From Chromatiales bacterium (GTDB taxonomy: Bacteria; Pseudomonadota; Gammaproteobacteria; SZUA-140): DNA of 64,000 nt. Shown in pieces: positions 31,716 to 44,375 of this stretch. Below the pieces are notes generated by a model. The model ran no database searches and was not told the DNA's origin. It saw only the letters and a program-made list of their open reading frames with translations. Made by a program: the position numbers and the translations under genes. Positions within the stretch are counted from its first letter, which is position 1. Each line of letters starts with the position of its first letter. The stretch spans positions 4,294 to 68,293 of the forward strand of contig JBJHCZ010000015.1 of the NCBI GenBank assembly GCA_050486285.1, written 5' to 3'.

Positions 31716-34700
31716 CTAGCCCGGCGTTCTCGGCTTGAAGCGGGTGACGTTGTCACCGTTGGAGATGCGGTGATCGTCGTCGCGGGCGAGATACTTCTGC
31801 TCGAAGGCCTCCGGCGTGAGCGGCTCGCTGAAATAGAAGCCCTGCATGAAGTCGCAGCCGGCCTCGCGCAGCACGCGGGCCTGTTCGGCGGTCTCGACGC
31901 CCTCGGCGATGACCTCGAGACCGAGACCACGCGCCATCGCAAGCACGCCGGTCACGATCGCGATGTCCTCGCGGTCGTCGGGGATGTCATGGACGAAGGA
32001 GCGGTCGATCTTGAGGATATCGACCGGGAAGCGCTTGAGGTAGGCGAGTGACGAATAGCCGGTACCGAAGTCGTCGATCGCGAGATGAATGCCCATCTCC
32101 TTGAACTTGCGGAAGATCGAGATCATGTCCTCGGCATGTTCCATGATGACGCTCTCGGTGATCTCGAGTTCGAGCAGATCGGACGGCACGCCGGTTTCCC
32201 TGAGTACGCGGCTGACCGTGTCGATGATCTCGAACTTCTCGATTTGGCGTACCGAGAGGTTGATCGCCATGCGCAGCGGCGCGTGACCCTTGTCGAGCCA
32301 GGTCTTCAGCTGCCGGCAGGCCTTGAACATCACCTGGTCGCCGATGCGGCCGATCAGGCCGGTGTCCTCGGCCAGCGGGATGAAATCGGCCGGCGCGACG
32401 ATGCCGCGTTCCGGATGCATCCAGCGCACCAGGGCCTCGACGCCGATGACCTTGCCGCTGCGGGATTCGACCTGGGGCTGGTAATGGATCAGCATTTCGT
32501 CGCGATCGACGGCCCTGCGCAAATCACCCTCCATCTTCAAGCGTCGCGCGACGTCCGCCTCCATACCGTATTCGAAGAAGCGGAAGTCGTTGCGATAACG
32601 CTTGGCATTGAACATCGCGGTGTCCGCATGTTTCATCAGCGTCGCGATGTCCGAGGCATCGGACGGGAACATCGAGATGCCGATGCTCAGCGTGACGAAG
32701 ATTTCCTGCTCGAGGAAGGTTACCGGCTTCGAGAAGGCCGTGCATATCTTCCTTGCGATCGAGGCCAGCACCTCGCGCGAGCCGATGTCGTCGAGTACGA
32801 TCGTGAACTCGTCACCGCCAAGGCGCGCGACCAGGTCGCCGTCGCGGACGCAATGATGCAGCCGTTCGGCGACGATCTTCAGCAGCATGTCGCCGGCGTC
32901 GTGGCCGAGGGTGTCGTTGATCAGCTTGAAGCGGTCGACGTCGATGAACATCACCGCGAGAGGCTTGCCGGTCTCGCGGTTGGCGTCGAGCAGCGCGGTC
33001 AGGTGGCTGGTAAAGCGCATCCTGTTCGGCAGGCCGGTCAGAGAATCGCTGTAGGCGAGCTGGTGCATGTGACGCTCGGTGCGGCTCGCATGCATCAGGT
33101 GGGCAATGCGGCGGCGCAGCACGGAGATGTTGACCGGTTTCGGGATATAGTCGGTTGCGCCGACCGAGAAGGCCTTCTCGATCGAGTCCTCGTCCTCGAG
33201 ACCGGTGATGATCAGCACCGGGATGTGGGCGCTGTCCGCCTGCTGTTTCAGATACTGGCAGGCGGCAAATCCGTCCATGATCGGCATCTTGCCGTCCATC
33301 AGGATCAGGTCGGGGGGGTCGTTTGCGCACAGGTCGATCGCAGTGGTGCCGTTGTCGGCCTCGATGACCCGGTAACCTTCCTCCTCGATGATATTGCGGA
33401 ACATCAAACGCGTGTAGCGATCGTCGTCGACGACCAGAATCCGCCCGACATGACCGTGATGGCCCTGGGATCCGCTTTCGACCCGATTGCCGTCCAGCTC
33501 GCTCCGCAGCAATGTCAGCAAGGTCTGCGACTCGGCGACGGCGGTGTTGTAGAGCATCCGGACGGTATTGATATCATTGCCGCGGCCGGCGGATTCGATG
33601 TGCCGGCTGACATCGGCCAGCCGGCTGGCGCCGATATTCGCGGCGCTGCCCTTGACCGCATGGGCAATATTGGGGACGTTGTCGAGTCGGCCTTCCCTGA
33701 TCGAGGCGTCGAGATCCGCCAGATAGGCAGGCAGATCCTCGATGAAGACCTTGAGCATCCCGGTAAACGAATCGCCGATCGATTCCCTGAGCTCGTTGAA
33801 CATGGCCTCATCGAGCGTCTGTCCCGCCACTGCCCGGTCGCCGGCTTCACCGGGGGCGATCGTTGAGGCGGGCAGGGGGCGGGCGGCCTCACCGCGCAAC
33901 CACACCGACAGCTTGTCACGGATGATCTCGAGCTTCAGGGGTTTGGAGAGATAGTCATCCATGCCGGCGTCGAGGCATCTGCGTATGTCCCCGTCCTGGA
34001 CGTTGGCGGTCATCGCGATGATCGGCATTCGGCGTCCGCTGCCTTCCAGCGCGCGGATCCGGCGCGTCGTCTCGTAGCCGTCGAGGTCGGGCATGTTGCA
34101 GTCCATCAGGGCGAGGTCGAACGATTCCAGGCGCAGGGCCTCGATTGCTTCGTGTCCGCCGGCGGCGACAGTGGGGCGCAGGCCGAGACGTTCGAGCATG
34201 CCGGAAACGACGTACTGGTTTGCCCGGTTGTCCTCGACGATGAGGATTCGTGAACGCGGGAGCTTGTTCGTCTCTGAGTCCGCTGCCGGGTCATCCCTGG
34301 CCGGCAAGGCAGGGCGACTGCCGATCAGCATGTCGATCAGCAGGCCGTGCAGCGTGGACTTTCGCAACGGCTTTCGAATTGACCAGGCGCTGGCATTGCC
34401 GGTGGTGGCGGTCTCGGCATCCGCCATCCCGTTCGCCATCAGCGCGATATGGGCGACGCCGGTCAGTTCACCCGACCCGATGATGTCGGCGACGGGGCGT
34501 CCGAAGTTAGCCTTGAGGTCGGCGTCTATCAGCAGGGCATCGAAGCAAGGATTGCGGTCCCGGCGCGACTCGATGATCGTCGACATCTCCTGCGCAGTCT
34601 GTGCGACGACCGGTCTCATGCCGAACGACTCGCACAGCCGCCGTGCCTGTCGCCTGACCGTCTCGCTGTCGTCGACGATGAGGATGCTCTTGCCGGCAAG

Positions 34701-36242
34701 CCTGCTCTCGACCGCAGTAGCGGCGACGGCGGATTCGGGCCTGTCGAACGGCAGCCTGACGCGGAAGCTGCTTCCCTGTCCCGGCGCGCTCCTGACGCCG
34801 ATGTCGCCGCCCATGAACTCGACGAGTTGCTTGCAGATCGCCAGACCGAGTCCGGTGCCGCCGTACTTGCGGGTCGTCGAACCGTCGGCCTGGAGGAAGG
34901 GTTCGAAAATGCGCTGGTGCGCGTGTTCGGCGATGCCGATGCCGGTGTCCCTGACCTCGAACAGGAGTGCCGGGCGTTCGGCGCAGGATTGTTCCGCCGG
35001 TTCGACGGAAATCGTGATTTCACCCTTGTCGGTGAATTTGATCGCGTTGCCGACCAGATTGACGATCACCTGGTGCAAGCGGGCACGATCGCCGTTGACC
35101 ATGGCCGGACAGTCGCTGTCTATCACATAGCCGATATCCAGTCCCTTGGCGTTGGCCTGGGTACCGATCAGGCCGAGTATGTCGTCGAGGAAATCCGTGA
35201 GGCAGAAGTCCTCGCGGTTGACTTCGAGCTGGCCGGAATCGTTGCGCGAGAAATCGAGGATGTCGTTGACCAGGGCCAGCAGGGATTCTCCGGAGCTGCG
35301 CGCAACCTCGAGATAGTCCGCCTGCCGCTCATTGAGACCCATGCCCTGCAACAATTCAAGCATGCCGAGGACGCCGTTCAGCGGCGTCCTCAGTTCGTGA
35401 CTGACCGTCGCCGCGAACTCGCCCTTCAGGCGCGCGGTCTCGATGGCGGCGTCCCGGGCCCTGCGCAGTTCGATCTCGCGGGCCTCGAGCACGTTCATCA
35501 TCTTGTTGAAGGCCGTCTGCATTTCGTTGACATCGCGCGGACCCTCGATGCCGGCGCGGATCATCGTCTCGCCGGAAGTCGCCCGGTGCATCGTCTCGGC
35601 AAGGCGCTTGATCGGGCCGGTGACGCGGCGGGTCAGCAGCAGCAGGGCCGCGAGCAACGCCGCGGCCAGTATCGAGCTCACCGTGATATTGGTCTTGAGC
35701 AGGTCGCCGGTCAGCCCATGCATCGTCTCCTTGCTCATGGCGAGCTGGACATGACCGATCAGCTCCGGTTGTCCGGGATCGACGGTGAACGGAGAATCCT
35801 CATCGATCGACGGAGTGGTATAGACCGGCGAGATGAAGCGCCACTGCCGGTTGCCGTCCTCGATCATCAGTGTCTGTGGCGGGATGGCGCCGGCGTAATC
35901 ATCGAGCCTGTTGATCTCGCCCACGGCCAGCAGCGGATGGCGATCGGTGTCGTAGACCGCGATCGCAACGATGTCCGGCGAACTCAGCACCGCCTCGGCG
36001 TAGTCCTGCACGTTTTCCGGACTGTGCAGCAGCAGCGCCAGAGTACTCTGCGAGGCCAGCGTCTCGGCGGTCTGATGCCCCTCGAACACGAAGCGATCGC
36101 GGATGGTCTGTCCGGACAGCCAGGTGATCGCGATCGACGATATCAGCGATGCGAGCAGGATACCGGCGACGAAGATCAGCGCCAGTTGCTGGCGGAATCC
36201 CATGCGGCCGTATCTGTTGGTCTTGTTCAGGTCCATTGCCAC
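31716..36242 (-). CDS. Hybrid sensor: TM-periplasmic-TM-HAMP-HisKA-HATPase-REC-REC-HPt-REC-GGDEF-EAL
   Basis: SHELRTPLNG, NAIKFT, GGTGLGL, LMDCNMP, AHAVKGSAANIG, LMDGKMP, RLGGDEF, EALVRW, DDFGTGYS; start at 36242 or 36236. Confidence 0.93.
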   Translation of the reverse strand: MAMDLNKTNRYGRMGFRQQLALIFVAGILLASLISSIAITWLSGQTIRDRFVFEGHQTAETLASQSTLALLLHSPENVQDYAEAVLSSPDIVAIAVYDTDRHPLLAVGEINRLDDYAGAIPPQTLMIEDGNRQWRFISPVYTTPSIDEDSPFTVDPGQPELIGHVQLAMSKETMHGLTGDLLKTNITVSSILAAALLAALLLLTRRVTGPIKRLAETMHRATSGETMIRAGIEGPRDVNEMQTAFNKMMNVLEAREIELRRARDAAIETARLKGEFAATVSHELRTPLNGVLGMLELLQGMGLNERQADYLEVARSSGESLLALVNDILDFSRNDSGQLEVNREDFCLTDFLDDILGLIGTQANAKGLDIGYVIDSDCPAMVNGDRARLHQVIVNLVGNAIKFTDKGEITISVEPAEQSCAERPALLFEVRDTGIGIAEHAHQRIFEPFLQADGSTTRKYGGTGLGLAICKQLVEFMGGDIGVRSAPGQGSSFRVRLPFDRPESAVAATAVESRLAGKSILIVDDSETVRRQARRLCESFGMRPVVAQTAQEMSTIIESRRDRNPCFDALLIDADLKANFGRPVADIIGSGELTGVAHIALMANGMADAETATTGNASAWSIRKPLRKSTLHGLLIDMLIGSRPALPARDDPAADSETNKLPRSRILIVEDNRANQYVVSGMLERLGLRPTVAAGGHEAIEALRLESFDLALMDCNMPDLDGYETTRRIRALEGSGRRMPIIAMTANVQDGDIRRCLDAGMDDYLSKPLKLEIIRDKLSVWLRGEAARPLPASTIAPGEAGDRAVAGQTLDEAMFNELRESIGDSFTGMLKVFIEDLPAYLADLDASIREGRLDNVPNIAHAVKGSAANIGASRLADVSRHIESAGRGNDINTVRMLYNTAVAESQTLLTLLRSELDGNRVESGSQGHHGHVGRILVVDDDRYTRLMFRNIIEEEGYRVIEADNGTTAIDLCANDPPDLILMDGKMPIMDGFAACQYLKQQADSAHIPVLIITGLEDEDSIEKAFSVGATDYIPKPVNISVLRRRIAHLMHASRTERHMHQLAYSDSLTGLPNRMRFTSHLTALLDANRETGKPLAVMFIDVDRFKLINDTLGHDAGDMLLKIVAERLHHCVRDGDLVARLGGDEFTIVLDDIGSREVLASIARKICTAFSKPVTFLEQEIFVTLSIGISMFPSDASDIATLMKHADTAMFNAKRYRNDFRFFEYGMEADVARRLKMEGDLRRAVDRDEMLIHYQPQVESRSGKVIGVEALVRWMHPERGIVAPADFIPLAEDTGLIGRIGDQVMFKACRQLKTWLDKGHAPLRMAINLSVRQIEKFEIIDTVSRVLRETGVPSDLLELEITESVIMEHAEDMISIFRKFKEMGIHLAIDDFGTGYSSLAYLKRFPVDILKIDRSFVHDIPDDREDIAIVTGVLAMARGLGLEVIAEGVETAEQARVLREAGCDFMQGFYFSEPLTPEAFEQKYLARDDDHRISNGDNVTRFKPRTPG

Positions 36243-36251
36243 TGGTCGCCG

Positions 36252-37235
36252 TTACTGGGGCGGAAATATCAGGTCGAAGCGGGCGAGGTCATCCCGCGTG
36301 TAGCGAATGCCGAGACGGCTTGCGGTGCGAACATTGAACGCCGTATGCAAGGCATCGAGCAGGCGTATCCCGACCGGATTTTCTGCGCGGCCGTGCGCAC
36401 GATGCTCATGGACTTCCATGGCCAGCGCGCCGATGCTGCGTCCCATTCTGTGATTATCCGGATACATCGCGAACAGGACGCCGCGCCTGACATGTGAAGG
36501 ATTGTTGGAGAAAACGATCAGTTTGCGATCCCATGACTCCTTGAGAATCATCGGCAGGATGGCCTGCTCGTCGAGCACCATGCTGTCCTGGGACAACCAC
36601 AGGGCCTCGGTGCCGCTTTTCTGGGTGGCGAGGATATCCCGATAACTGCTCGCAGCTTCCTGGGGCCTGTCGACCGGAATCGGATTCAGCGTGATGCCAT
36701 GCTTCGCGGAGGCCGCCCTGGCGCGATCGATCAACCACTGTTCCCGCTCACGGTGGTAGATGATATTGACGCGCTCCACCCCCGGTGCCAGCGCCTTCAG
36801 ACGATGGAGAAGGATTTCGGGATCAGGGTTCAGCGCGATGCCGTAGTAAGAATTGGCGAGCAGCCCGTCCGACATGTGGATGGCGCCGATTACCACGGGA
36901 ATCCTCGGTGACAACTCCTTGCTCAGATCCTGCCCCCGGCTGCCGAGCACCACCGCGATCCCGATATCGTTCCGGCCGAGCCAGGAAGTCAATGCCTCAG
37001 CTGTTTCTTCATTCGTGATGGGGCGAACATTGACCTGTCCGCCGAGCGTCTCGGCGATTCCTTCCGCGATAGTCGTGAAGACACTGCGGAACGGCTCCCT
37101 GATCTCGGGGAAGAGGACGGCGGTGACCGGGGTGTCGGCCGAGGCGGGCTGAACGATGAACAGGGGTAAAGCCGTAACAACAACCAGGCTGGCCTTTAAA
37201 GCAAAAGAGAACAAATGCTTAAGAGAGTAGGCCAT
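36252..37235 (-). CDS. Periplasmic substrate-binding-like protein (ABC_sub_bind-like) with no cognate permease
   Basis: Signal peptide ending ASA; P-loop-free alpha/beta pattern; C-terminal FNVRTASRLGI typical of this SBP family. Confidence 0.72.
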   Translation of the reverse strand: MAYSLKHLFSFALKASLVVVTALPLFIVQPASADTPVTAVLFPEIREPFRSVFTTIAEGIAETLGGQVNVRPITNEETAEALTSWLGRNDIGIAVVLGSRGQDLSKELSPRIPVVIGAIHMSDGLLANSYYGIALNPDPEILLHRLKALAPGVERVNIIYHREREQWLIDRARAASAKHGITLNPIPVDRPQEAASSYRDILATQKSGTEALWLSQDSMVLDEQAILPMILKESWDRKLIVFSNNPSHVRRGVLFAMYPDNHRMGRSIGALAMEVHEHRAHGRAENPVGIRLLDALHTAFNVRTASRLGIRYTRDDLARFDLIFPPQ

Positions 37236-37304
37236 GTCTCGGCAGTGCTTGTCTGGCTAAATGGAGTCCCTGCCGGTATTCGCGGGATACCGGCCCGTGC
37301 ATAG

Positions 37305-37331
37305 TTATCGGCCTTGAGTGTCAGCCCTGAA
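37305..37331 (-). promoter_or_regulatory. Possible sigma28 (FliA)-type promoter for the SBP-sensor genes
   Basis: Minus strand TTCAG-N14-GCCGATAA with a perfect -10; 70 nt upstream of the SBP start. Confidence 0.45.
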
Positions 37332-37357
37332 CCATGAAACGGCCGCCAGCAGGCGGC

Positions 37358-39463
37358 CTATCGGCCACCCAGCCAGTCCAGGTGATAGCGCGCTTCGACG
37401 AAGTAGTGGCGGCCGGCCAGCGGGAGGTCCCCGGGAATTGCCCCCGGCGCAGGGCTTGGCTCAAAGGCTTCCTCATCGAAGATGTTGCGACCGGATAACG
37501 CAAACTCCCAGGGCGAACCCATGCCTCGGTACCTCAGGGTGATGTCCGTAAGCAGATAGTCATCGACCTGCGTTCTCGGATCGGCAACCTCACGTTTTCT
37601 GTCTGCGACCCAGTTGACCTGCGCATTCAGTCGCCAATTCGGGAGGAATCGCCAATCTGAACGGATATAGATTTGATGCTGTGGCGCATTGGCAACGTTG
37701 GAGTCTGTATCTTTTTCCCTGGATTTCTGGAAGGCATAGTTACCCAATAATGTCAGTTTGGCCGTGGCTTCATAATGAGCCTCGAATTCAGCGCCATAGC
37801 CGTTACGACTACCTGAGTTCTGTGCAGTCACAGTGGTAGCAGGCGCAGCATCAGGGATAAACCGGAGGATATCATCCATTTCGTACCTGAAGAGGTTGAG
37901 TCCGGTCCTCAGCTTGTCTGAATTCTGTTTTGTGAAGGCGATCTCATAGGTATCAATGGTTTCGGGCTTGAGATCCGGGTTACCCAGCGCCACGGGATTA
38001 TTGATGTTATAGAGCTCGTTAAATGCTGGCGCACGAAATGCACGACCATACAGCAACTTCGTTGTTATGCCAGGAGTAGTCTGCCATACGAGCGCCAGCC
38101 TCGGGTTTGTAGTATTGCCGAAGTCAGAATAATCGTCATAGCGAATGCCGCTCGTCAGCGTCCAGTGGCTGGCAAGTCTCCATTCATCCTGTGCGAACAG
38201 ATAGTATACCTGTCGATCTTGTGGGCGGATGAAGACATTGTTCGGATTGTTGCTTTCATCCACTAATCCCCCTGGTAACGGGATCGGTATACCGCCGGGA
38301 GCAAAGGTGTAGTTCTTTACCTCCCGGACCTTGTACATATCGCTGTTTATGGCGCCGGCACCTATCCGAATACTGTGGTTGGAAAGCCCGTGGTAGAAGG
38401 CAGACAATCCCAGACGAGTATGTCGTTCATATACGTACGGACGAGCAATCATGCCATCCGGGAAGGCGCCGCCAAAGGATCCGGGAGGATAAAGCACAAG
38501 ATTAGGCTCTGCGCTTGTGTCGAAGTAGCTCAGGACCGCTGTAAGATCCCAATGCTGGCTGACCGCGTTGTTGTATGTCAGGTCGGTATTAATTCTCTGA
38601 CTTTTCCCCGACGCCTGAGGGTCGAGAGCCTGTGCAACTCCGGCGCCGCTGCCGAGTTCCTGCCTTCCCTGAAAGCCGGCTCTGAATCTCCAGTTACCCC
38701 GGGCAAGGTCGAATCGTGCGTCGATGGTGTCTCTCTGAAGATTTACCGGACCAGGAGCATAGGAGACATTTGACAGAAAAAGTTGATCAAGGAATGTTTG
38801 AGCATCCGCCTCGATGGTTTCCCTGTGGCCATCGGTAGTCATGTACTGGAGTGAAAACGCGATATCGTTCCCGTTCCACCTCCCGCCATGAAGCATCCAC
38901 CCTTCGCGTGTACTGAATGAGCCGGAACGGGCTCCAAACTCGGTTCCATTGATATCATCAGCAGACTTGGTGATGATGTTGATCGTACCGGCAAAGGCAT
39001 CAGCGCCGTACACGGCGGAGCCGGGGCCGCGGATTATTTCGATACGCGCGATGTCATTGACAGGCATGCCGCCCCATAGTTCTCCCCTGTTTCCTACAAA
39101 CAGATTGGTGATCGGGATGTCGTTGATCAGAATCAGAACCTGCGGGTTGTTTTCGGAATATATGCCTCTTACGGTGTACAGTGGCAGATAGCCACGCGGC
39201 GCGACGGACACATGGAGTCCGGGGATGGATTCCAGGACCTCGTCAAGGTCGCGAGCGCCCATGTCCCGGATGTCCTTTTCAGTGATGACGGAAGCTACTG
39301 CCGGGGCCCTTGAAATTGGTTGAAGTGACCCCGTAGCGATACTGATAAACTGCTCGTCACCGAAAGCGCGCATCAGCGCATCTTCCTCAGTGCCTGATAT
39401 GGCGTTGCCGCCATGAGTCGACATGATCAGGGCCGCACAGGCAAGGCATGAGAGTCTGGACAT
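37358..39463 (-). CDS. TonB-dependent outer-membrane receptor
   Basis: Signal peptide, plug APAVASVIT...RIEIIRGPGSAVYGADAFAGTINIITK, NPDLKPE, RNIFD, C-terminal beta strand. Confidence 0.93.
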   Translation of the reverse strand: MSRLSCLACAALIMSTHGGNAISGTEEDALMRAFGDEQFISIATGSLQPISRAPAVASVITEKDIRDMGARDLDEVLESIPGLHVSVAPRGYLPLYTVRGIYSENNPQVLILINDIPITNLFVGNRGELWGGMPVNDIARIEIIRGPGSAVYGADAFAGTINIITKSADDINGTEFGARSGSFSTREGWMLHGGRWNGNDIAFSLQYMTTDGHRETIEADAQTFLDQLFLSNVSYAPGPVNLQRDTIDARFDLARGNWRFRAGFQGRQELGSGAGVAQALDPQASGKSQRINTDLTYNNAVSQHWDLTAVLSYFDTSAEPNLVLYPPGSFGGAFPDGMIARPYVYERHTRLGLSAFYHGLSNHSIRIGAGAINSDMYKVREVKNYTFAPGGIPIPLPGGLVDESNNPNNVFIRPQDRQVYYLFAQDEWRLASHWTLTSGIRYDDYSDFGNTTNPRLALVWQTTPGITTKLLYGRAFRAPAFNELYNINNPVALGNPDLKPETIDTYEIAFTKQNSDKLRTGLNLFRYEMDDILRFIPDAAPATTVTAQNSGSRNGYGAEFEAHYEATAKLTLLGNYAFQKSREKDTDSNVANAPQHQIYIRSDWRFLPNWRLNAQVNWVADRKREVADPRTQVDDYLLTDITLRYRGMGSPWEFALSGRNIFDEEAFEPSPAPGAIPGDLPLAGRHYFVEARYHLDWLGGR

Positions 39464-39539
39464 GATGCCACCATCTGTTTATGCAGGAGGGACCTGCCTT
39501 CTAATGGTGGTTTTAGCGACAACCGCAGGCTAATACTTT

Positions 39540-39622
39540 AGTGTAGAGAGGGGTGTGGCCAGGCTTCAGTATCTGGCCGGGTGCCAGGGGGTAATAAAAT
39601 ATTAAATAAAAACAAAATATTA
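39540..39622 (-). promoter_or_regulatory. AT-rich regulatory region upstream of the TonB receptor (sigmaS-like -10, IHF-like site)
   Basis: Minus-strand CTACACT at 39540-39546; AAACAAAATATTA at 39610-39622 has one mismatch to WATCAANNNNTTR and an adjacent A-tract. Confidence 0.35.
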
Positions 39623-39643
39623 AAACGGTTTATTGGAGATAAA

Positions 39644-40462
39644 TCAAGATTGATCGCGATCCCAGGGGCGATGCCCGTGACCGTTGTACTCGATACGCTC
39701 ACACGACATCGGGAGGAAGGAGCCTTCTACCCGCTCCGCTGCTTCCATATAGCAGGGGATCATACCTGCGACGAATGATGGTATCAGGTACAGGTAATAC
39801 TCATAAGTACTCAGCCCCTGATCGGCCGCCAGCGCCGCACCCAGTGCAGCGGCATTCATTCTGAATCGATAGCGGGAACTGATCAGTATCTCCTCGATCT
39901 CGAAGATCAATCTGAGGTGGCGGCCGTTTCCAAAGCCCAGCGATTCAGCGACTTCGCAGACAGGTTTGATGCGTTCGTCAGCATTGACAAGTGGTCTGCC
40001 ATAACCCGCGATACCGCGATGCCGCGCCAGTTCGTTGGTGACGATGATGGACAGGTCAGCACCGGAATCGAGTTTTTCGGTAGTTCTGTAAAGAAAATCT
40101 ATCGCTCTGACATCAGGGCGACGTCCGTAAACCGAGGCCTCCGATACTGACAACGCGGCACAGATACCCAAGTTGGCGGTGCTGCGCACAGTCCCGGCTA
40201 GGGAAGCAACGCGGTTATTCCAGATCCGCGGGTCGGGATAACTGGTCCCCAGCGACCATATGCACTCAAAAAGCCGAATCTGGTTGTCGGTGAATTCCCG
40301 CCCGGTAATTCCATATAAAAAGATTTCCATCCATCTCGCGTTTCTGAGGTCGGTGAACAGGTCTTTGCCTCTGAAAACGACGCGTTCTCCGGGGAAGACG
40401 AGTCCCATCGAGGTTTTCCAGTTATCTTCCTGGGAAGCCAGGTAATCCGGACCGGTCATCAA
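39644..40462 (-). CDS. Divergent citrate synthase/citryl-CoA lyase-fold protein B
   Basis: WKTSMG..VVFRGKDL, GIAGYGRP, DER, MNAA; about 270 aa like citryl-CoA lyases. Confidence 0.65.
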   Translation of the reverse strand: MMTGPDYLASQEDNWKTSMGLVFPGERVVFRGKDLFTDLRNARWMEIFLYGITGREFTDNQIRLFECIWSLGTSYPDPRIWNNRVASLAGTVRSTANLGICAALSVSEASVYGRRPDVRAIDFLYRTTEKLDSGADLSIIVTNELARHRGIAGYGRPLVNADERIKPVCEVAESLGFGNGRHLRLIFEIEEILISSRYRFRMNAAALGAALAADQGLSTYEYYLYLIPSFVAGMIPCYMEAAERVEGSFLPMSCERIEYNGHGHRPWDRDQS

Positions 40463-41283
40463 TCTGTGCCTGCTGTCATGGAGTCACCCGACATCGGGTC
40501 GTTGACCAGGTGGACTGCATTTCTGTAGAAAGGAAAGTTCCTGAAACCGATTTCATACTGCTCTATTGCATGCACGGCAGCGCCGGGGAGTCTCAGCAGC
40601 AGGTAGATCATTTCTCCCTGGCGTACATTCATCCCGAGATCGTTGAAAGCGGCGGCCGCAACCCCGCTCATGGACAGTGAGCAGCCTGCAATCGCTTCAA
40701 GTTCCATTCTGTTTGTCTGTAACCACTGCAGCGAAGCGCACGAGGAAGTGACAGCGAGGTGCTGTAACGTCATTCTGACCGGAGTCGGACACTGAGGTTT
40801 GTGCGGGTCGAAGCCGGGAGGATGCCCGATAACGGGCCAGACATCGGCACGTTCAGACCGTTGCGGGGAGCTGAGGTTGCGCTTCCAGTCAGGCAGGTTG
40901 GTGCCGCAGAGATTCCAAAGTTCCATCGATAGCGCAACTTCTCGTGCTCCGCCCAGCTGTCCCGCTCCTGTGGCGAGCGCTGCCATCAGGCATGCGGCGC
41001 TGTCGGATCCGCCTACACCCCCATTCATTGCAGCCATTACGCTATGATCACGAGGGCCGGGGTTTGCGATTGCAATTGCCAGGTCTCGCAACAACTCGAC
41101 TTGTTGTTTGTCGGGCCGCTCACCCATGAATAGCAAGAAGAGGTATTCGATCCAATCCGCTTTTCCGAGCAGATCGCCGTATACATCGTAACCGTGACAG
41201 TAGCAAGCCGATGCAGAATAAGGGTCGCTGACCTCGGGCGTTTCACGCCATATCCGTGTTTTAATGGTTTCTTTGCTGGTCAC
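40459..41283 (-). CDS. Divergent citrate synthase/citryl-CoA lyase-fold protein A
   Basis: IKTRIW..HGYDVYGDLLG, FLLFMGERP, LGGA, PPGF, LLRLPGAAVHAIEQ; overlaps the next gene by 4 nt. Confidence 0.68.
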   Translation of the reverse strand: MTSKETIKTRIWRETPEVSDPYSASACYCHGYDVYGDLLGKADWIEYLFLLFMGERPDKQQVELLRDLAIAIANPGPRDHSVMAAMNGGVGGSDSAACLMAALATGAGQLGGAREVALSMELWNLCGTNLPDWKRNLSSPQRSERADVWPVIGHPPGFDPHKPQCPTPVRMTLQHLAVTSSCASLQWLQTNRMELEAIAGCSLSMSGVAAAAFNDLGMNVRQGEMIYLLLRLPGAAVHAIEQYEIGFRNFPFYRNAVHLVNDPMSGDSMTAGTD

Positions 41284-41290
41284 GGGATTA

Positions 41291-42337
41291 TCAATACTTG
41301 TGGCCGGTTATCAGGCTGTAATAGCCGTAGCCGGAGGATATGTCAATATTCGAAAAGCCGGCCTCGTCAAGCAGAGTAACCAGTTCCGGGCCAGTAAATT
41401 GCTTGCCTTCCGTCACCATCAACATAGCCAGAGAGTAGGCATTTCCTGTAACAGGACCGCATGCGTCGTCGTCGAGAAGAACTTCATTGAGAATGATGCG
41501 CCCACCGGGAATCAGGCTGTCTAATGCCTTGCGAGCAAGAGCAAGGCACATATCCCGATTCCAGTCATGAACGATGTCACTCATGAATATTGCATCAAAA
41601 CCCGTGGGCCATGAGTCACGAAACATGTCGAGTGGCAAGACTTCAATCCTGTCAGAAAGCCGATAGGTCTTGATATATTCCCTGGTATGGTGACAGACAG
41701 TTTCCAGGTCCATGACTACGCAAGTCATATCAGGATGTGTGGCTGCGAGAGAAATAGAATAACACCCGGAGCCGCCACCGACATCGAGCAGGCGGTTGAT
41801 ATTCTCGACACAGGGGGATCTTGCCAGCGCGATCGCAGAGGCAAACCCGTGGCTATGCATTTTTGCAGTGAAGCTCCTGGCCTGTTCCGGGGCAAGTGTT
41901 GAATCCTTCCACATATCCGTGAATCGCCTGCCAGACCCGCGGGCAGGGTGTGCCGCATCACCCCTGATCGCATCCATGATCATTGAATGACTGACCGGAT
42001 TGTCCTTGACTGTGTGAAGGACGCCGCCCCAGTAGTGAGGGCTGTCAGGTAACAGGTAGCTGCCTGAAAGATCGGTGATATGGAATTTTTTATTGTGTCT
42101 GGCAAGGAAACCCATTGCAGTAAGCATATTCAGTAATGCCTCGGCGGAGCGTTCACTCAATCCGAGGTCATTGGCAAGCTCGTTAGCGGTAGAAGGGGTT
42201 TCCCGGAGTCTCTGAAATATACCCAGCTCGTCGGCGACAGTAAGCGCGGGTAGTCTGAACCCTGACAACCAGATGTCCCAAAGCGGCCGGTTGTCTGTGG
42301 GCGGCAACGGCGGGAGGTTATGCTCCGGAGGCGACAT
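41291..42337 (-). CDS. SAM-dependent O-methyltransferase (COMT/HIOMT-like, dimerisation domain)
   Basis: LGIFQRL winged-helix N-terminus, LLDVGGGSG, MDL, DMF, IVHDW; start at 42337 (ATG) or 42349 (GTG). Confidence 0.9.
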   Translation of the reverse strand: MSPPEHNLPPLPPTDNRPLWDIWLSGFRLPALTVADELGIFQRLRETPSTANELANDLGLSERSAEALLNMLTAMGFLARHNKKFHITDLSGSYLLPDSPHYWGGVLHTVKDNPVSHSMIMDAIRGDAAHPARGSGRRFTDMWKDSTLAPEQARSFTAKMHSHGFASAIALARSPCVENINRLLDVGGGSGCYSISLAATHPDMTCVVMDLETVCHHTREYIKTYRLSDRIEVLPLDMFRDSWPTGFDAIFMSDIVHDWNRDMCLALARKALDSLIPGGRIILNEVLLDDDACGPVTGNAYSLAMLMVTEGKQFTGPELVTLLDEAGFSNIDISSGYGYYSLITGHKY

Positions 42338-42349
42338 GGAGAGATGCAC

Positions 42350-44269
42350 TCAGAACATGTGCAATTCAGTCACCAGCATCTGCATCCTTTCAGCCAGCGG
42401 TGGCACTTCATCGCCGTCGATATGGACATCGATCAGCGCCGGCGCCTGGCGGCGGCACAGGTGCGCGATGTCGATGTCGTCGAAGTCGGCCGCCGTCCTG
42501 ACGGTCCAGGCCTCGACGCCCATGCCGCGGGCGACGGCGGCATAGTCGACCGGCGGCAGTTCGTAACCGACGGGCTCGGCGTGCGCCAGTTGCTGGCCGT
42601 GGCGGACGGTGCCGAGCATCCGGTCGTTCAGGATGATGAAGAGGGTCTTGAGCCGGTGTTGCACCGCAGTCGTCAGTTCCTGGCCGCTCATCAGGTAGCT
42701 GCCGTCGCCGACGATGCAGACCACCGGCGCGCGCTGGTTGGCGATCGCGGTGCCGACGGCGGCGCCGATCGCCCAGCCCATCGAGGCGAAGCCCATGCTG
42801 GTGCGGAACCAGTCCAGGTCGCCCGCGCGTTGACCGTTCTCCGGATGCCAGGGGTGCAGATAGTGGATGCCCCACAGGAAGCTGTTGCCGATGTCGGCGA
42901 GGAAGCGGGTGTCCGGCGGGAATAGCCGCGACAGCTCGTACATCAGGCGCTGCGGGCGCAGAGGTTCCGAGTCCTCGATGTATTTGGCTTCGTCGGCGAG
43001 CGAGAAGCGACGGCTGAACAAGGGCGTGCCGTTGCCGTTGCGGCGCTCGCGCCTGCGCCGGTCGTTGCCGTCTTCGGAGCCCGCGACATGACCGCGGCGG
43101 TCGCGGTTGCGGCGGTCGAAGGTGACGACGTTCGGGTAGCAGGACAGCCGCTGGTTGCCCATGTCCCAGGGCGGCAGGCGTGTCACGCCCGAGCCGGACA
43201 GCACATCGATCAGGTCGCGGAACAGGGTCTCGATATCGCCGCAGACATGCAGGTCGGCGTTCTGCGAACGCACGAAGTGGCGGGCGAGGCTGTCGACGTG
43301 CACGAGTTTGCCGTCGAGCTTGCCGGAATGCAGCCAGCCCTGACCGGCCTGTTCATCGAGCGCGGAACCGGCGATCAGCACGAGGTCGGTCGAGGGGTGC
43401 AGCAGGCGCTCGGTCGCGCTGCGGTGGCCCGCGAGTCCGCACACGCCGCGGTAATGCGGATGGTAGGCGTCGATGAGGCCCTTGGCCTGCGGCGTCGTGA
43501 CGATGACCGCGCCGCGGCTCTCCGCGAATTCGAGCAGGGCTGCCATGGCATCGCGGCAGCCTTCGCCGACGACGACGACGATCTGGCCGGCGGCGCGGAC
43601 CCGGCGCGCAAGCAGATCGATGCGCTCGTGATCGGTCGTGCGCGGCTGGCGCATCAGCGAGGCGATATTGACCGGCCGCCCGCTGGCCTCCAGCGGCGAG
43701 CGCAGCAGGTCGAGCGGAATACTCAGGTGCGCCGGTCCACGAGCCTGGAAGGCCAGCGTGATCGCGGCGATGAGCTTGCGTTCGAGTTGCTTCAGGTGCG
43801 AGACCAGCGTGTTGTAATGCGTGCAGTGGTGCATCATCGCGACGGTATCGATCGCGGTGCACGAGGACTCCTGCACCGCGCCGTTGCCGAAGGTTTCGAG
43901 CGGCGTCTGCGCGGTGATGACGAGCATCGGCGTGTTGTCCTGGTAGGCGCTGGCGACGCCGGTGATCAGGTTGGTCGCGCCGGGCCCGGTGGTCGCGCAG
44001 CAGACCCCGAGGCGGCCGGTCTCGCGCGCGTAGCCGTCGGCCATGAAGGCGGCGCCGGCCTCGTGACGGGCGACGACCGGCGTGATGCGGCCGCGGCGCT
44101 GGCTGCGCGCAAGGGCGTTGTAGAGGGGTTCGATCGCGCCGCCGGGGACGCCGAAGACATGGTCGACGCCGATCTGTTCGAGGTAGCGGACGATCAGATC
44201 CGACGCTTCCGGAAACAGACCGGGCAGGGCTTCGGCGAAGGTCTGCGTGGCCTCGAGGGACTTCGTCAT
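42350..44269 (-). CDS. Thiamine-diphosphate-dependent enzyme (acetolactate synthase-like, ScyA-type carboligase candidate)
   Basis: FGVPGGAI, RHEAGAAFMADGYAR, TTGPGATN, GAVQESS, ADIGNS, SMGWAIG, GDGSYLM...LND. Confidence 0.9.
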   Translation of the reverse strand: MTKSLEATQTFAEALPGLFPEASDLIVRYLEQIGVDHVFGVPGGAIEPLYNALARSQRRGRITPVVARHEAGAAFMADGYARETGRLGVCCATTGPGATNLITGVASAYQDNTPMLVITAQTPLETFGNGAVQESSCTAIDTVAMMHHCTHYNTLVSHLKQLERKLIAAITLAFQARGPAHLSIPLDLLRSPLEASGRPVNIASLMRQPRTTDHERIDLLARRVRAAGQIVVVVGEGCRDAMAALLEFAESRGAVIVTTPQAKGLIDAYHPHYRGVCGLAGHRSATERLLHPSTDLVLIAGSALDEQAGQGWLHSGKLDGKLVHVDSLARHFVRSQNADLHVCGDIETLFRDLIDVLSGSGVTRLPPWDMGNQRLSCYPNVVTFDRRNRDRRGHVAGSEDGNDRRRRERRNGNGTPLFSRRFSLADEAKYIEDSEPLRPQRLMYELSRLFPPDTRFLADIGNSFLWGIHYLHPWHPENGQRAGDLDWFRTSMGFASMGWAIGAAVGTAIANQRAPVVCIVGDGSYLMSGQELTTAVQHRLKTLFIILNDRMLGTVRHGQQLAHAEPVGYELPPVDYAAVARGMGVEAWTVRTAADFDDIDIAHLCRRQAPALIDVHIDGDEVPPLAERMQMLVTELHMF

Positions 44270-44375
44270 GGAGCCCGTCCTGTGATTATTATTCGTATGT
44301 TGCCGATGTTATTTCCAGAACAAGGTCAACATTAAAACTTCGATTATTGAATTGCAAGAATATTGGGTCGATTGG

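What the first reader, a model, noticed from the sequence alone, without database searches (positions are those of the whole stretch)
31716..44269. Candidate undescribed signal-synthase / import / c-di-GMP sensing system (quorum-sensing-like)
Seen: seven co-oriented genes. In transcription order they are a ThDP enzyme, an O-methyltransferase, two citrate-synthase-fold proteins (these four with gaps of at most about 12 nt or a 4-nt overlap), a TonB-dependent receptor, a periplasmic binding protein and a membrane hybrid kinase ending in GGDEF-EAL. There is no ilvH/ilvC, no ABC permease or ATPase and no catabolic gene. Established: ALS-like ThDP enzymes such as ScyA (scytonemin) and CybE (cyanobacterin furanolide) couple 2-oxoacids into acyloins for specialised metabolites, and YfiR-YfiN shows periplasmic control of a diguanylate cyclase. 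Inference: the first four genes make a methylated acyloin-derived small molecule. The TBDR would bring it into the periplasm, and the binding protein would present it to the sensor that sets c-di-GMP. This would be a synthase-receptor pair unlike LuxI/LuxR, LuxS/LuxPQ or CqsA/CqsS.
Basis: partly seen in the sequence, partly recalled or inferred. Interest (0 to 1): 0.92.

Follow-up and report, generated by a model that had tools for sequence, protein, structure and literature searches.

The report
Conserved enzyme–importer–sensor gene module
Seven neighbouring genes (an unusual three-part enzyme, a methyltransferase, an outer-membrane importer, a periplasmic binding protein and a membrane sensor that sets c-di-GMP) form a gene set that recurs across many bacteria. 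It has not been described in the literature I could search, and it probably lets cells make, re-import and sense a small molecule of their own.

Summary
In detail: seven co-oriented minus-strand genes with the stated domains.

- Among 43 related loci with full flanks, the counts are ThDP 43, CSb 43, TBDR 41, PF04392 protein 34, membrane sensor 39, GGDEF-EAL 36 and OMT 3.
- In an evenly drawn sample of 401 genomes of the class, 37 of the 40 genomes with CSa also hold the binding protein. In 28 the two lie within 14 kb.
- A divergent subfamily keeps the same gene set in other orders.
- Hahella/Marinobacter loci replace the PF04392/sCache_4 pair with YfiR-like/CHASE8.

New points:
- Natural ThDP-CSa and CSa-CSb fusions exist.
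- By alignment, both citryl-CoA-lyase-fold proteins lack canonical catalytic residues.
- The OMT is accessory.
- OMT-CSa-CSb-TBDR form a low-GC3, hypervariable cassette between conserved ends.
- CSa/CSb divergence tracks TBDR divergence.

Best reading (0.5): a self-made small molecule is re-imported and sensed in the periplasm, mostly with a c-di-GMP output. The product and the ligand are unknown. No description was found in print.

The parts
42350..44269 (-). ThDP-dependent AHAS-like enzyme (639 aa), not an AHAS equivalog. It carries an Arg-rich insertion at about residues 360-425.
   Evidence: Pfam TPP_enzyme_N/M/C. TIGR00118 scores 284.7, under the cut-off of 538. Nearest solved chains are BbmA 8x3x (E 8.6e-87) and CsmA 8x3z, ahead of AHAS 6lpi (4.6e-64). 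Present in 43 of 43 full loci. Fused to CSa in 7 natural proteins. GC3 is 0.887.
41291..42349 (-). Family-2 small-molecule methyltransferase (352 aa). It is an accessory tailoring gene, not part of the core.
   Evidence: Pfam Methyltransf_2 plus Dimerisation. Nearest PDB chains are 5i2h, DsyB and SibL. Present in 3 of 43 full loci, at other positions. Present in G007, G003, G023 and G018; absent from G001, G006, G004 and G002. GC3 is 0.581.
40459..41283 (-). CSa: citryl-CoA-lyase-fold protein (274 aa) without the canonical catalytic His/Asp.
   Evidence: NCBIfam CCL E 1.9e-11, far under the cut-off. Profile against 6hxp gives E 5.1e-10. AF2 model pLDDT 93.1. Foldseek gives 6hxp TM 0.68 and the ACLY CCL module TM 0.73 at 14-17% identity. 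The family has 2927 hits and 472 representatives.
39644..40462 (-). CSb: second, more degenerate CCL-fold paralogue (272 aa). Its start overlaps CSa by 4 nt.
   Evidence: NCBIfam CCL E 4.7e-12. Profile against 6hxp gives E 1.1e-9. hhalign against CSa gives probability 96% at 19% identity. Beside CSa in 77 of 80 loci. CSa-CSb fusions P0196, P0204 and P0238.
37358..39463 (-). TonB-dependent outer-membrane receptor (701 aa) with no N-terminal signalling extension.
   Evidence: Pfam Plug plus TonB_dep_Rec_b-barrel. No NCBIfam equivalog is reached. Present in 41 of 43 full loci. Its divergence co-varies with CSa and CSb after controlling for ThDP and HK (partial r 0.46 and 0.58, 0 of 999 permutations). 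GC3 is 0.594.
36252..37235 (-). Periplasmic PF04392 (ABC_sub_bind) binding protein (327 aa) with a Sec signal peptide and no cognate ABC permease.
   Evidence: Pfam PF04392, 34.1 bits. The N-terminal signal sequence was read. Present in 34 of 43 full loci; six of the others carry a YfiR-like protein instead. Its distances track those of HK (Spearman 0.63). The complex model with the HK sensor domain gives weak support.
31716..36242 (-). Membrane sensor (1508 aa): TM-sCache_4-TM-HAMP-HisKA-HATPase_c-REC-REC-Hpt-REC-GGDEF-EAL.
   Evidence: Pfam. NCBIfam BarA 502 bits (cut-off 890), DibA-like GGDEF-EAL 485.6. GGDEF with an RxxD site five residues upstream, and EAL, DDFGTG and EGVE motifs, were read from the translation (motif meanings recalled).
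44270..44375 (-). Upstream intergenic region with three sigma-70-like matches; the likely operon promoter.
   Evidence: 9 promoter-like sites in 14 kb against 4.2 expected, 3 of them here. Consensus matches only. Sequence read; I saw no convincing Fur box.
39464..39643 (-). AT-rich 180-nt spacer between CSb and the TBDR; possibly an internal promoter or regulatory region.
   Evidence: Sequence read. No Rfam match. No terminator-like site.

Best explanation
The locus is one member of a widespread, uncharacterised gene set found mainly in Gammaproteobacteria (GTDB sense, which includes the Burkholderiales).

Shown: a cytoplasmic enzyme is encoded by three genes, an AHAS-like ThDP protein and two citryl-CoA-lyase-fold proteins (CSa, CSb). 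Natural fusions indicate that these work together. Lineage-specific tailoring enzymes accompany them: the methyltransferase here, a short-chain dehydrogenase elsewhere.

Inferred: this enzyme makes a small molecule from 2-oxoacid and perhaps acyl-CoA precursors, and the molecule leaves the cell. The dedicated TonB-dependent receptor brings it, or a metal-bound or modified form of it, back into the periplasm. No inner-membrane transporter is encoded, so it is read there. The PF04392 binding protein (in other lineages a YfiR-like protein) docks on the periplasmic sCache_4 domain (elsewhere CHASE8) of the membrane sensor. In this genome the sensor runs an internal His-Asp-His-Asp phosphorelay that controls a GGDEF-EAL output, and so sets c-di-GMP.

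Within the genus, the genes that would fix the molecule's structure and its recognition (OMT, CSa, CSb, TBDR) form a hypervariable cassette. This suggests strain- or species-specific variants of the molecule with matching importers.
For: (1) Linkage. I examined 80 loci, the best 80 of 238 confirmed relatives of CSa. Of the 43 with at least 8 kb upstream and 9.5 kb downstream, ThDP is present in 43, CSb 43, TBDR 41, PF04392 protein 34, sensor N-terminal region 39, GGDEF-EAL 36.

(2) Unbiased sample. In 401 genomes drawn evenly from the class, CSa (E<=1e-20) is in 40 and the SBP (E<=1e-15) in 52. Both are in 37, where about 5 would be expected if independent. They lie on one contig within 14 kb in 28 (my tabulation).

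(3) The set survives rearrangement. A subfamily with 30-35% CSa identity has ThDP-TBDR-CSa-CSb-SBP-sensor or SBP-sensor-TBDR-CSa-CSb.

(4) Analogous replacement. Six full loci (Hahella, Marinobacter, Oleiphilaceae) carry YfiR/HmsC-like DUF4154, CHASE8-HAMP-kinase, REC and REC-GGDEF-EAL in place of PF04392/sCache_4.

(5) Fusions. Seven ThDP-CSa proteins of 858-901 aa and three CSa-CSb proteins.

(6) No permease, exporter or transcription factor family recurs in 10 or more loci. The only extra family is an SDR, in 10 loci.

(7) Mosaic pattern. GC3 is ThDP 0.887 and HK 0.840, against OMT 0.581, CSa 0.600, CSb 0.615 and TBDR 0.594. Between the window and G007, the flanks, ThDP and HK are 86-91% identical, but OMT, CSa, CSb, TBDR and SBP are only 57-66%. 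The window's CSb is closest to that of the more distant G003, at 71%.

(8) Across 32 loci, CSa and CSb distances track TBDR distances after controlling for ThDP and HK (partial r 0.46 and 0.58; 0 of 999 permutations). SBP distances track HK distances (Spearman 0.63).

(9) Complex model of the SBP with the sensor domain: weak support. The score was 0.44 against a best control of 0.00. That mark was reached by 58 of 80 solved complexes and 2 of 110 mismatched pairs. At 0.60 or under it was reached by only 7 of those 80 and by both mismatches that passed. The runs agree in at least 67% of contacts, and the partner's pLDDT is at least 84. My own alignments were used.

(10) SBP-dependent stimulation of kinases and c-di-GMP enzymes is an established mechanism (PMC10443332, passages read).
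Against: - No product, ligand or expression data exist.
- No exporter is encoded.
- CSa and CSb lack the canonical CS/CCL catalytic residues by alignment, so their chemistry, or even whether they catalyse anything, is open.
- SBP divergence does not track CSa, CSb or TBDR (partial r 0.11, 0.16 and 0.00; 96, 38 and 514 of 999 permutations reach it). This is not what a binding protein tuned to a variable product would show.
- The CSa/CSb-TBDR covariation may simply reflect co-transfer of adjacent genes.
- The enzymes occur without TBDR or sensor in Planctomycetota, Dongiaceae and Desulfuromonadaceae loci.
- The TBDR-PF04392-sCache_4 trio occurs without the enzymes, in this genome (contig C1) and in L111, L113 and L116. 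Each half can therefore work alone.
- ThDP enzymes and CCLs also include lyases, so a catabolic role is not excluded.
- The 80 loci are the nearest relatives of CSa and are not phylogenetically independent.
Confidence: 0.5

Rival explanations
1. An uptake-and-utilisation locus for an exogenous compound, like the TBDR-based nutrient loci of Bacteroidota (PULs) and Xanthomonas (CUT loci). The TBDR imports an environmental molecule and the SBP/sensor reports it. The cytoplasmic ThDP/CCL-fold enzyme cleaves or converts it, and c-di-GMP adjusts lifestyle to its presence.
For: TBDR plus periplasmic sensing plus enzymes is the layout of known nutrient loci (recalled). ThDP relatives in the PDB list include lyases such as 2-hydroxyacyl-CoA lyase, benzaldehyde lyase and oxalyl-CoA decarboxylase. 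The CCL fold belongs to a lyase. The TBDR-SBP-sensor trio also occurs with other partners. SBP divergence does not track the enzymes.
Against: No inner-membrane transporter recurs in any of the 80 loci, so an imported substrate has no encoded route to the cytoplasmic enzymes. The output is signalling (mostly GGDEF-EAL), not a transcription factor. The accessory genes are tailoring enzymes, OMT and SDR. The enzymes stand alone among housekeeping genes in other phyla. Equidistant alleles at one chromosomal site within a genus fit social traits better than catabolism; this last point is inference.
Confidence: 0.2
2. A metallophore system. The enzyme makes a small hydroxy-acid-type chelator, and the TBDR takes up its metal complex. 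The periplasmic sensor reports the loaded chelator, as enterobactin is reported by PfeS/PfeR or pyoverdine by FpvA signalling in Pseudomonas (recalled). This is a sub-case of the best explanation in which the primary role is nutritional rather than communicative.
For: TBDRs are typical metallophore importers, and the best NCBIfam hits are the heme, B12 and siderophore receptor subfamilies, all under their cut-offs. A hypervariable synthesis-plus-receptor cassette with odd codon use resembles the pyoverdine locus (recalled). Carriers include iron oxidisers (Gallionellaceae, Ferrigenium) and a genome from mine tailings.
Against: No inner-membrane metal or chelate transporter, reductase or exporter recurs. 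I saw no convincing Fur box upstream (read by eye, 10 of 19 consensus positions at best). No known siderophore synthetase family is present.
Confidence: 0.15
3. Two independent units that are merely neighbours: a cytoplasmic metabolic enzyme, and a separate TBDR-SBP-sensor module for an unrelated ligand.
For: Each unit occurs without the other in some genomes.
Against: The units co-occur in 37 of 40 CSa-bearing genomes in the sample and lie within 14 kb in 28. The link survives gene-order changes and replacement of the periplasmic protein and sensor by non-orthologous ones.
Confidence: 0.05

Closest known systems
NspS-MbaA of Vibrio cholerae (periplasmic binding protein controlling a membrane GGDEF-EAL protein; recalled, not tested here)
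   Same: A periplasmic SBP without its own ABC transporter, encoded beside a membrane c-di-GMP enzyme. The ligand (a polyamine) can be self-made.
   Different: The SBP family differs (PF04392, not PotD-like). Here there are also a TBDR, a full phosphorelay and a dedicated enzyme cassette. No sequence relationship was tested.
YfiB-YfiN-YfiR (TpbB) and HmsCDE
   Same: A periplasmic protein controls a membrane c-di-GMP enzyme through its periplasmic domain. Variant loci of this gene set really do carry DUF4154 (YfiR/HmsC-like, E 5.9e-46) and CHASE8.
   Different: The window itself has PF04392 and sCache_4 instead. No YfiB-like gene was seen. The CHASE8 proteins here are histidine kinases that feed a separate REC-GGDEF-EAL. 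A TBDR and an enzyme cassette are present.
LuxP-LuxQ and TorT-TorS (SBP-dependent hybrid kinases)
   Same: An SBP sits beside a hybrid kinase. NCBIfam TorS scores 486 bits and LuxQ 371 bits on the kinase core.
   Different: Both scores are under the equivalog cut-offs. The SBP and sensor-domain families differ, and the output here is fused GGDEF-EAL. LuxS, LuxI and CqsA-type synthases are absent.
TBDR-coupled periplasmic sensing of siderophores (PfeA with PfeS/PfeR) and the pyoverdine locus (recalled)
   Same: Import by a dedicated TBDR is followed by sensing in the periplasm. A hypervariable synthesis/receptor region has atypical codon usage.
   Different: There is no NRPS or NIS synthetase, no Fur-type signature was seen, and the output is c-di-GMP.
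ThDP carboligases of specialised metabolism (ScyA, CybE) and the solved BbmA/CsmA
   Same: Same AHAS-like three-domain enzyme. NCBIfam ScyA-related scores 243 bits. BbmA 8x3x (E 8.6e-87) and CsmA (9.7e-80) are closer than any AHAS.
   Different: The scores are far under the ScyA cut-offs (1000 and 1020). None of these is known to me to pair with CCL-fold subunits. I found no paper on BbmA/CsmA in the library, so their reaction is unknown to me.
Citryl-CoA lyase and the CCL module of ATP-citrate lyase
   Same: The same fold (TM 0.68-0.73) and about the same length.
   Different: Identity is 14-17%. By alignment to 6hxp, the His of 'HGGA' is Leu in CSa and absent in CSb. The Asp of 'NVD' is Ser in CSa and Ala in CSb. 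CSb also lacks the 'GYGH' His. The roles of these residues are recalled.

Membership tests
Biosynthetic acetolactate synthase (AHAS, TIGR00118) | Scores at or above the equivalog cut-off | tested here: not met
   284.7 bits against a cut-off of 538.35. The genome's true IlvI on contig C4 scores 890.6.
Biosynthetic acetolactate synthase (AHAS, TIGR00118) | Encoded with the small subunit ilvH and with ilvC | tested here: not met
   Neither is in the locus. ilvH and ilvC follow the C4 paralogue.
ThDP-dependent decarboxylase/carboligase superfamily | N-terminal, middle and C-terminal ThDP-enzyme domains | tested here: met
   PF02776, PF00205 and PF02775, all over their cut-offs. The GDG...ND motif and the HE glutamate were read (motif roles recalled).
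Citrate synthase / citryl-CoA lyase | CS/CCL fold | tested here: met
   CSa model pLDDT 93.1. 6hxp TM 0.68 and 6hxo TM 0.73. For CSb, only sequence profiles were used.
Citrate synthase / citryl-CoA lyase | Family model cut-offs | tested here: not met
   PF00285 scores 21.2 and 17.3 against 27. NF004864/NF004866 score 43.5 and 45.6 against 261 and 245.
Citrate synthase / citryl-CoA lyase | Catalytic His, His and Asp | tested here: not met
   The HMMER alignments to 6hxp put Leu/none at the first His and Ser/Ala at the Asp. The second His is deleted in CSb and uncertain in CSa (invariant H154 lies two residues away). This rests on sequence alignment only, and the residue roles are recalled.
YfiR-YfiN type periplasmic control of a c-di-GMP enzyme | DUF4154 (YfiR) protein and a CHASE8 sensor | tested here: not met
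   The window has PF04392 and sCache_4. Both features are met in the variant loci L043 and L076.
SBP-dependent membrane sensors (NspS-MbaA, LuxPQ, TorTS kind) | SBP gene beside the sensor gene, without an ABC permease or ATPase | tested here: met
   A 9-nt gap separates the SBP and HK genes. No ABC genes lie in the locus. The pair is adjacent in 34 of 43 loci.
SBP-dependent membrane sensors (NspS-MbaA, LuxPQ, TorTS kind) | Direct binding of the SBP to the sensor's periplasmic domain | tested here: inconclusive
   The complex model gives weak support: 0.44 against a best control of 0.00, with the calibration counts given in the For line. SBP and HK distances correlate (0.63).
Known autoinducer synthases (LuxI, LuxS, CqsA/LqsA) | Homologous synthase in the locus | tested here: not met
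   No such Pfam or NCBIfam family was found on any of the seven proteins.
TBDR nutrient-utilisation loci (PUL/CUT kind) | Inner-membrane transporter and degradative enzymes encoded with the TBDR | tested here: not met
   No transporter family recurs in 10 or more of the 80 loci. Whether the enzymes degrade anything cannot be tested here.
BarA/GacS-type unorthodox hybrid kinase | HisKA-HATPase-REC-Hpt in one chain, at equivalog score | tested here: inconclusive
   The domains are present. BarA scores 502.3 bits against a cut-off of 890. The extra REC-GGDEF-EAL is not part of BarA.
TonB-dependent receptor | Plug plus 22-strand barrel domains | tested here: met
   PF07715 scores 79.3 bits and PF00593 scores 164.1 bits. 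No substrate-specific equivalog is reached.

The most novel reading that the evidence does not exclude
This is a new family of bacterial cell-to-cell signalling systems. A ThDP enzyme bound to a catalytically re-purposed citryl-CoA-lyase-fold heterodimer makes a family of small acyloin-type autoinducers. A dedicated TonB-dependent receptor gates their re-entry, and a periplasmic binding protein/sensor pair converts them into c-di-GMP levels. The OMT/SDR-CSa-CSb-TBDR cassette would act as a swappable specificity ('pherotype') module that keeps related strains on private channels.
Probability: 0.3. Interest if true: 0.92.

Novelty: new variant of a known kind. Interest (0 to 1): 0.8.

Why it matters
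If the reading holds, roughly one in ten sampled genomes of the class carries an unrecognised route from a self-made small molecule to c-di-GMP, the main switch between motile and biofilm life. In one search, 40 of 401 genomes hold CSa, 26 of them at E <= 1e-87. The carriers include methanotrophs, iron oxidisers and marine oil degraders.

It would add three things:
- an enzyme type, a ThDP enzyme working with CCL-fold partners;
- a sensing layout, with signal entry gated by the outer membrane;
- a possible example of specificity cassettes outside peptide pheromones and siderophores.

Carriers exist in culture according to record titles (Hahella spp., Marinobacter sp., Collimonas spp., Methylogaea oryzae), so the idea can be tested directly.

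Tried and rejected
- Riboswitch or other known RNA in the locus: none. The only Rfam match is a chance hit, E 0.22.
- Terminators inside the operon: none convincing.
- Fur box upstream of the ThDP gene: read by eye, at best 10 of 19 consensus positions. Not convincing.
- First CSa structure from 14 close sequences: poor (pLDDT 62.1). It was replaced by a model from 83 diverse sequences.
- ESM Atlas look-up of CSa: only 'citrate synthase'-labelled clusters, nothing new.
- Neighbours of the enzyme genes in Dongiaceae, Desulfuromonadaceae and Planctomycetota loci: unrelated housekeeping genes, no functional hint.
- OMT presence against TBDR similarity within the genus: no visible pattern.
- Expression: the look-up of sequencing runs listed no RNA holder. 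The only holder is a DNA run that may be the source of this assembly.
- Literature: eight searches found no description of this gene set. The term sets were citryl-CoA lyase/TBDR/acetolactate synthase; PF04392; BbmA/CsmA/thiamine; BbmA; YfiR/TBDR/citrate synthase; citryl-CoA lyase/diguanylate cyclase/TonB; the PDB codes 8X3X/8X3Z/8XOD; and YfiR/TonB-dependent/CHASE8.
- Limits of the literature search: I saw only search listings, apart from passages of PMC10443332. Subscription journals are not covered, so a description may exist, notably the paper behind BbmA/CsmA. Supplementary files were not consulted.
- Considered and rejected: an ordinary ilv operon, a canonical citrate synthase pair, and chance adjacency.

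Full report
WHAT IS THERE

The window is contig C15 of a 2.8-Mb, 54-contig assembly. The only sequencing run that holds it is labelled a mine-tailings metagenome and may be its source.

Seven ORFs lie head to tail on the minus strand between 31716 and 44269. Pfam and NCBIfam give:
- an AHAS-like ThDP enzyme (639 aa);
- a family-2 methyltransferase (352 aa);
- two about 273-aa proteins with weak citrate-synthase / citryl-CoA-lyase (CCL) similarity, here called CSa and CSb;
- a TonB-dependent receptor (TBDR, 701 aa);
- a PF04392 periplasmic binding protein (SBP, 327 aa) with a signal peptide;
- a 1508-aa membrane protein with sCache_4, HAMP, HisKA, HATPase_c, three REC, Hpt, GGDEF and EAL.

The translation shows an intact GGDEF with an RxxD site five residues upstream, and the usual EAL-domain motifs. 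The meaning of these motifs is recalled.

The flanks are unrelated. Upstream lie a MiaB-like radical-SAM enzyme, a CrtC-like lipocalin and a MacB/FtsX permease. Downstream lie an isochorismatase-family protein and NAPRTase. No Rfam family matches in the locus.

THE THDP ENZYME IS NOT THE CELL'S AHAS

It scores 284.7 bits on TIGR00118, whose cut-off is 538.35. A canonical ilvI (890.6 bits), followed by ilvH and ilvC, lies on contig C4.

Its nearest solved relatives are BbmA (8x3x, E 8.6e-87) and CsmA (8x3z), ahead of any AHAS (6lpi, 4.6e-64). I could find no paper on these two in the library, so I do not know what they catalyse.

CSa belongs to a large family. There are 2927 hits in the 90%-clustered database, and the best 120 are at least 59% identical. 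In the 50%-clustered library there are 472 representatives.

A scan of one genome per species with a CSa profile gave 238 confirmed relatives. The best 80 were fetched with up to 10 kb of flank. By record title they come from:
- Chromatiales, Acidiferrobacterales, Methylococcaceae, Cycloclasticus, Porticoccaceae, Thiotrichales;
- Hahella, Marinobacter, Oleiphilaceae, Cellvibrionaceae;
- Collimonas, Gallionellaceae, Rhodocyclales;
- and, outside this class, Dongiaceae, Geobacterales, Desulfuromonadaceae and a Planctomycetota genome.

I searched these loci by tblastn with the seven window proteins. Among the 43 loci with at least 8 kb upstream and 9.5 kb downstream, the counts are:

| Gene | Loci of 43 |
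|---|---|
| ThDP | 43 |
| CSb | 43 |
| TBDR | 41 |
| SBP | 34 |
| Sensor N-terminal region | 39 |
| GGDEF-EAL | 36 |
| OMT | 3 |

The usual order is ThDP-CSa-CSb-TBDR-SBP-sensor.

Clustering all ORFs of the 80 loci found only one further family in 10 or more loci, a short-chain dehydrogenase in 10. No permease, exporter or transcription factor recurs.

These 80 loci are the nearest relatives of CSa, so I also used a sample not chosen by the feature: 401 genomes drawn evenly from the class.
- CSa (E <= 1e-20) is in 40 and the SBP (E <= 1e-15) in 52.
- 37 genomes hold both.
- In 28 the two genes lie on one contig within 14 kb. In the other nine they lie on different contigs of fragmented assemblies (my tabulation).
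- Two of the genomes in these counts (G063, G165) are unpublished.
- Independence would give about 5 genomes with both. Related genomes are not independent, but the 40 span 34 genera.

Thirteen of the 40 carry a distant CSa (31-36% identity). I fetched several of these regions. They hold the same gene families in other orders, such as ThDP-TBDR-CSa-CSb-SBP-sensor or SBP-sensor-TBDR-CSa-CSb.

Six full loci (Hahella, Marinobacter, Oleiphilaceae) have no PF04392 protein. Instead they carry a YfiR/HmsC-like DUF4154 protein, a CHASE8-HAMP kinase, a REC protein and a REC-GGDEF-EAL protein, with the TBDR on the other strand.

So the link between the enzyme genes and a 'TBDR + periplasmic protein + membrane sensor' unit survives both gene-order changes and replacement by non-orthologous parts. 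That is the strongest evidence for a functional tie.

LIMITS OF THE LINK

- The enzymes stand among housekeeping genes, without TBDR or sensor, in the Planctomycetota locus (where CSb is fused to a Polyketide_cyc2 domain), in the Dongiaceae locus and in the Desulfuromonadaceae locus.
- Conversely, the sensory trio occurs without the enzymes in L111, L113 and L116.
- It also occurs a second time in this genome. On contig C1, a TBDR, a PF04392 protein and an sCache_4 hybrid kinase sit beside a REC-GerE regulator and a MacAB-like exporter.
- The output varies. Three loci carry REC-PP2C-HATPase_c_2 upstream of the ThDP gene and a kinase without GGDEF-EAL. Gallionella-type sensors go straight from HAMP-PAS to GGDEF-EAL.

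THE ENZYME

Seven natural proteins of 858-901 aa are ThDP-CSa fusions. In P0121, residues 25-593 are 45% identical to the window's ThDP enzyme and residues 612-871 are 56% identical to CSa. Three proteins of 516-574 aa are CSa-CSb fusions. CSa and CSb are distant paralogues (hhalign probability 96%, 19% identity). The three proteins therefore very probably form one enzyme.

A model of CSa from 83 diverse sequences is confident (pLDDT 93.1). It matches citryl-CoA lyase and the CCL module of ATP-citrate lyase (TM 0.68-0.73, 14-17% identity).

The HMMER alignments to the solved CCL 6hxp suggest that the usual active site is gone:
- At the His of 'HGGA', CSa has Leu and CSb has nothing equivalent.
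- At the Asp of 'NVD', CSa has Ser and CSb has Ala.
- CSb also lacks the His of 'GYGH'.

The roles of these residues are recalled, and I had no residue-level structural superposition. The pair may have a new activity, since CSa has many invariant Cys, His, Arg and Glu residues. Or it may act as a substrate-binding or regulatory partner.

The methyltransferase here and the dehydrogenase elsewhere look like optional tailoring steps. That fits biosynthesis better than degradation, but this is inference.

A VARIABLE CASSETTE

In six genomes of the same and the sister genus, the locus sits between the same flanking genes.

| Gene | GC3 |
|---|---|
| ThDP | 0.887 |
| HK | 0.840 |
| SBP | 0.735 |
| CSb | 0.615 |
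| CSa | 0.600 |
| TBDR | 0.594 |
| OMT | 0.581 |

The relatives show the same dip in the central genes.

Between the window and its closest relative G007, NAPRTase, isochorismatase, HK and ThDP are 86-91% identical. SBP, TBDR, CSb, CSa and OMT are only 57-66% identical. The window's CSb is closest (71%) to that of G003, whose ThDP enzyme is only 64% identical. The OMT is present in some of these genomes and absent from others.

Across 32 loci, CSa and CSb distances track TBDR distances after controlling for ThDP and HK (partial r 0.46 and 0.58; 0 of 999 permutations). SBP distances track HK distances (0.63) and not those of CSa, CSb or TBDR.

Co-transfer of adjacent genes could produce the first correlation. 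The second result speaks against an SBP tuned to a variable product. The pattern resembles the pyoverdine locus and pheromone 'pherotype' loci. That comparison is recalled and serves as an analogy only.

SBP AND SENSOR

A complex model of the mature SBP with the periplasmic domain of the sensor (residues 42-184) gave weak support.
- The score was 0.44 against a best control of 0.00.
- That mark was reached by 58 of 80 solved complexes and 2 of 110 mismatched pairs.
- At 0.60 or under it was reached by only 7 of those 80 and by both mismatches that passed.
- The runs agree in at least 67% of contacts, and the partner's pLDDT is at least 84.
- My own alignments were used.

PF04392 proteins with solved structures bind aromatic amino acids, and SBP-dependent stimulation of kinases and c-di-GMP enzymes is well established (PMC10443332, passages read).

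READING AND RIVALS

Most likely (0.5): the enzyme makes a small molecule that leaves the cell, is brought back into the periplasm by the dedicated TBDR, and is read there by the binding-protein/sensor pair. In this genome the result passes through an internal phosphorelay to GGDEF-EAL.

Only the gene content, the linkage, the fusions, the fold and the mosaic pattern are shown. Product, export, import and binding are all inferred.

The rivals are:
- a locus for sensing and using an exogenous compound (0.2);
- a metallophore version of the same scheme (0.15);
- mere neighbourhood (0.05);
- the remainder is unassigned.

No exporter or inner-membrane transporter is encoded. This argues against both the utilisation and the metallophore readings, but it also leaves export unexplained.

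NOVELTY

The parts are of known kinds: SBP- or YfiR-controlled sensors, TBDR-coupled periplasmic sensing, and ThDP carboligases. I found no description of a ThDP enzyme coupled to CCL-fold partners, or of this enzyme tied to a TBDR-gated c-di-GMP sensor, in eight full-text searches. Those searches do not cover subscription journals.

I rate it a new variant of a known kind, with a 0.3 chance that it is a truly new signalling family.

Noticed in passing
G000 contig C1, locus L135:6631-16827 (minus strand): A second, paralogous sensory trio in the same genome: TBDR, PF04392 protein and sCache_4-HAMP-HK-REC-Hpt hybrid kinase. It is preceded by a REC-GerE (LuxR-type) regulator and a HlyD/ABC/MacB-FtsX exporter, and has no ThDP or CS-fold genes. 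The TBDR-SBP-sCache_4 kinase trio therefore looks like a reusable sensing module.
   Followed up: partly
window 36252-42349: OMT, CSa, CSb and TBDR (and partly the SBP) have GC3 of 0.58-0.74, against 0.84-0.89 in the ThDP and HK genes on either side. The same dip occurs in relatives, with 57-66% identity where the flanks are 86-91%.
   Followed up: yes
window 42350-44269, about residues 360-425 of the protein: The ThDP enzyme carries an Arg/Asp/Gly-rich low-complexity insertion that is missing from the fused homologue P0121 (gaps in the alignment).
   Followed up: no
L026:6319-8049, L028:5014-6750, L031:4654-6411: In three loci a REC-SpoIIE(PP2C)-HATPase_c_2 protein lies just upstream of the ThDP gene, and the sensor kinase lacks GGDEF-EAL. 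This looks like a partner-switching type of output in place of c-di-GMP.
   Followed up: partly
L069:10816-12102 (Planctomycetota MAG): CSb is fused to a C-terminal Polyketide_cyc2 (SRPBCC) domain, and the locus has no TBDR or sensor.
   Followed up: no
window 45738-49450: A CrtC-like two-lipocalin protein lies next to an 843-aa MacB_PCD/FtsX permease. The CrtC-like gene is kept as a flank of the locus in relatives.
   Followed up: no
window 26948-28870: A 640-aa protein with Lnb_N plus DUF7843/DUF7842/DUF7840 domains; function unknown to me.
   Followed up: no
G000 contig C18:22028-23086: A second family-2 methyltransferase, 41% identical to the locus OMT. It has no NCBIfam match at E <= 1e-30.
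   Followed up: no
L107 (G010, same family as the window): TBDR-CSb-CSa lie on one strand and YfiR-like, CHASE8 and GGDEF-EAL on the other. No ThDP gene was found within the 18 kb fetched.
   Followed up: no
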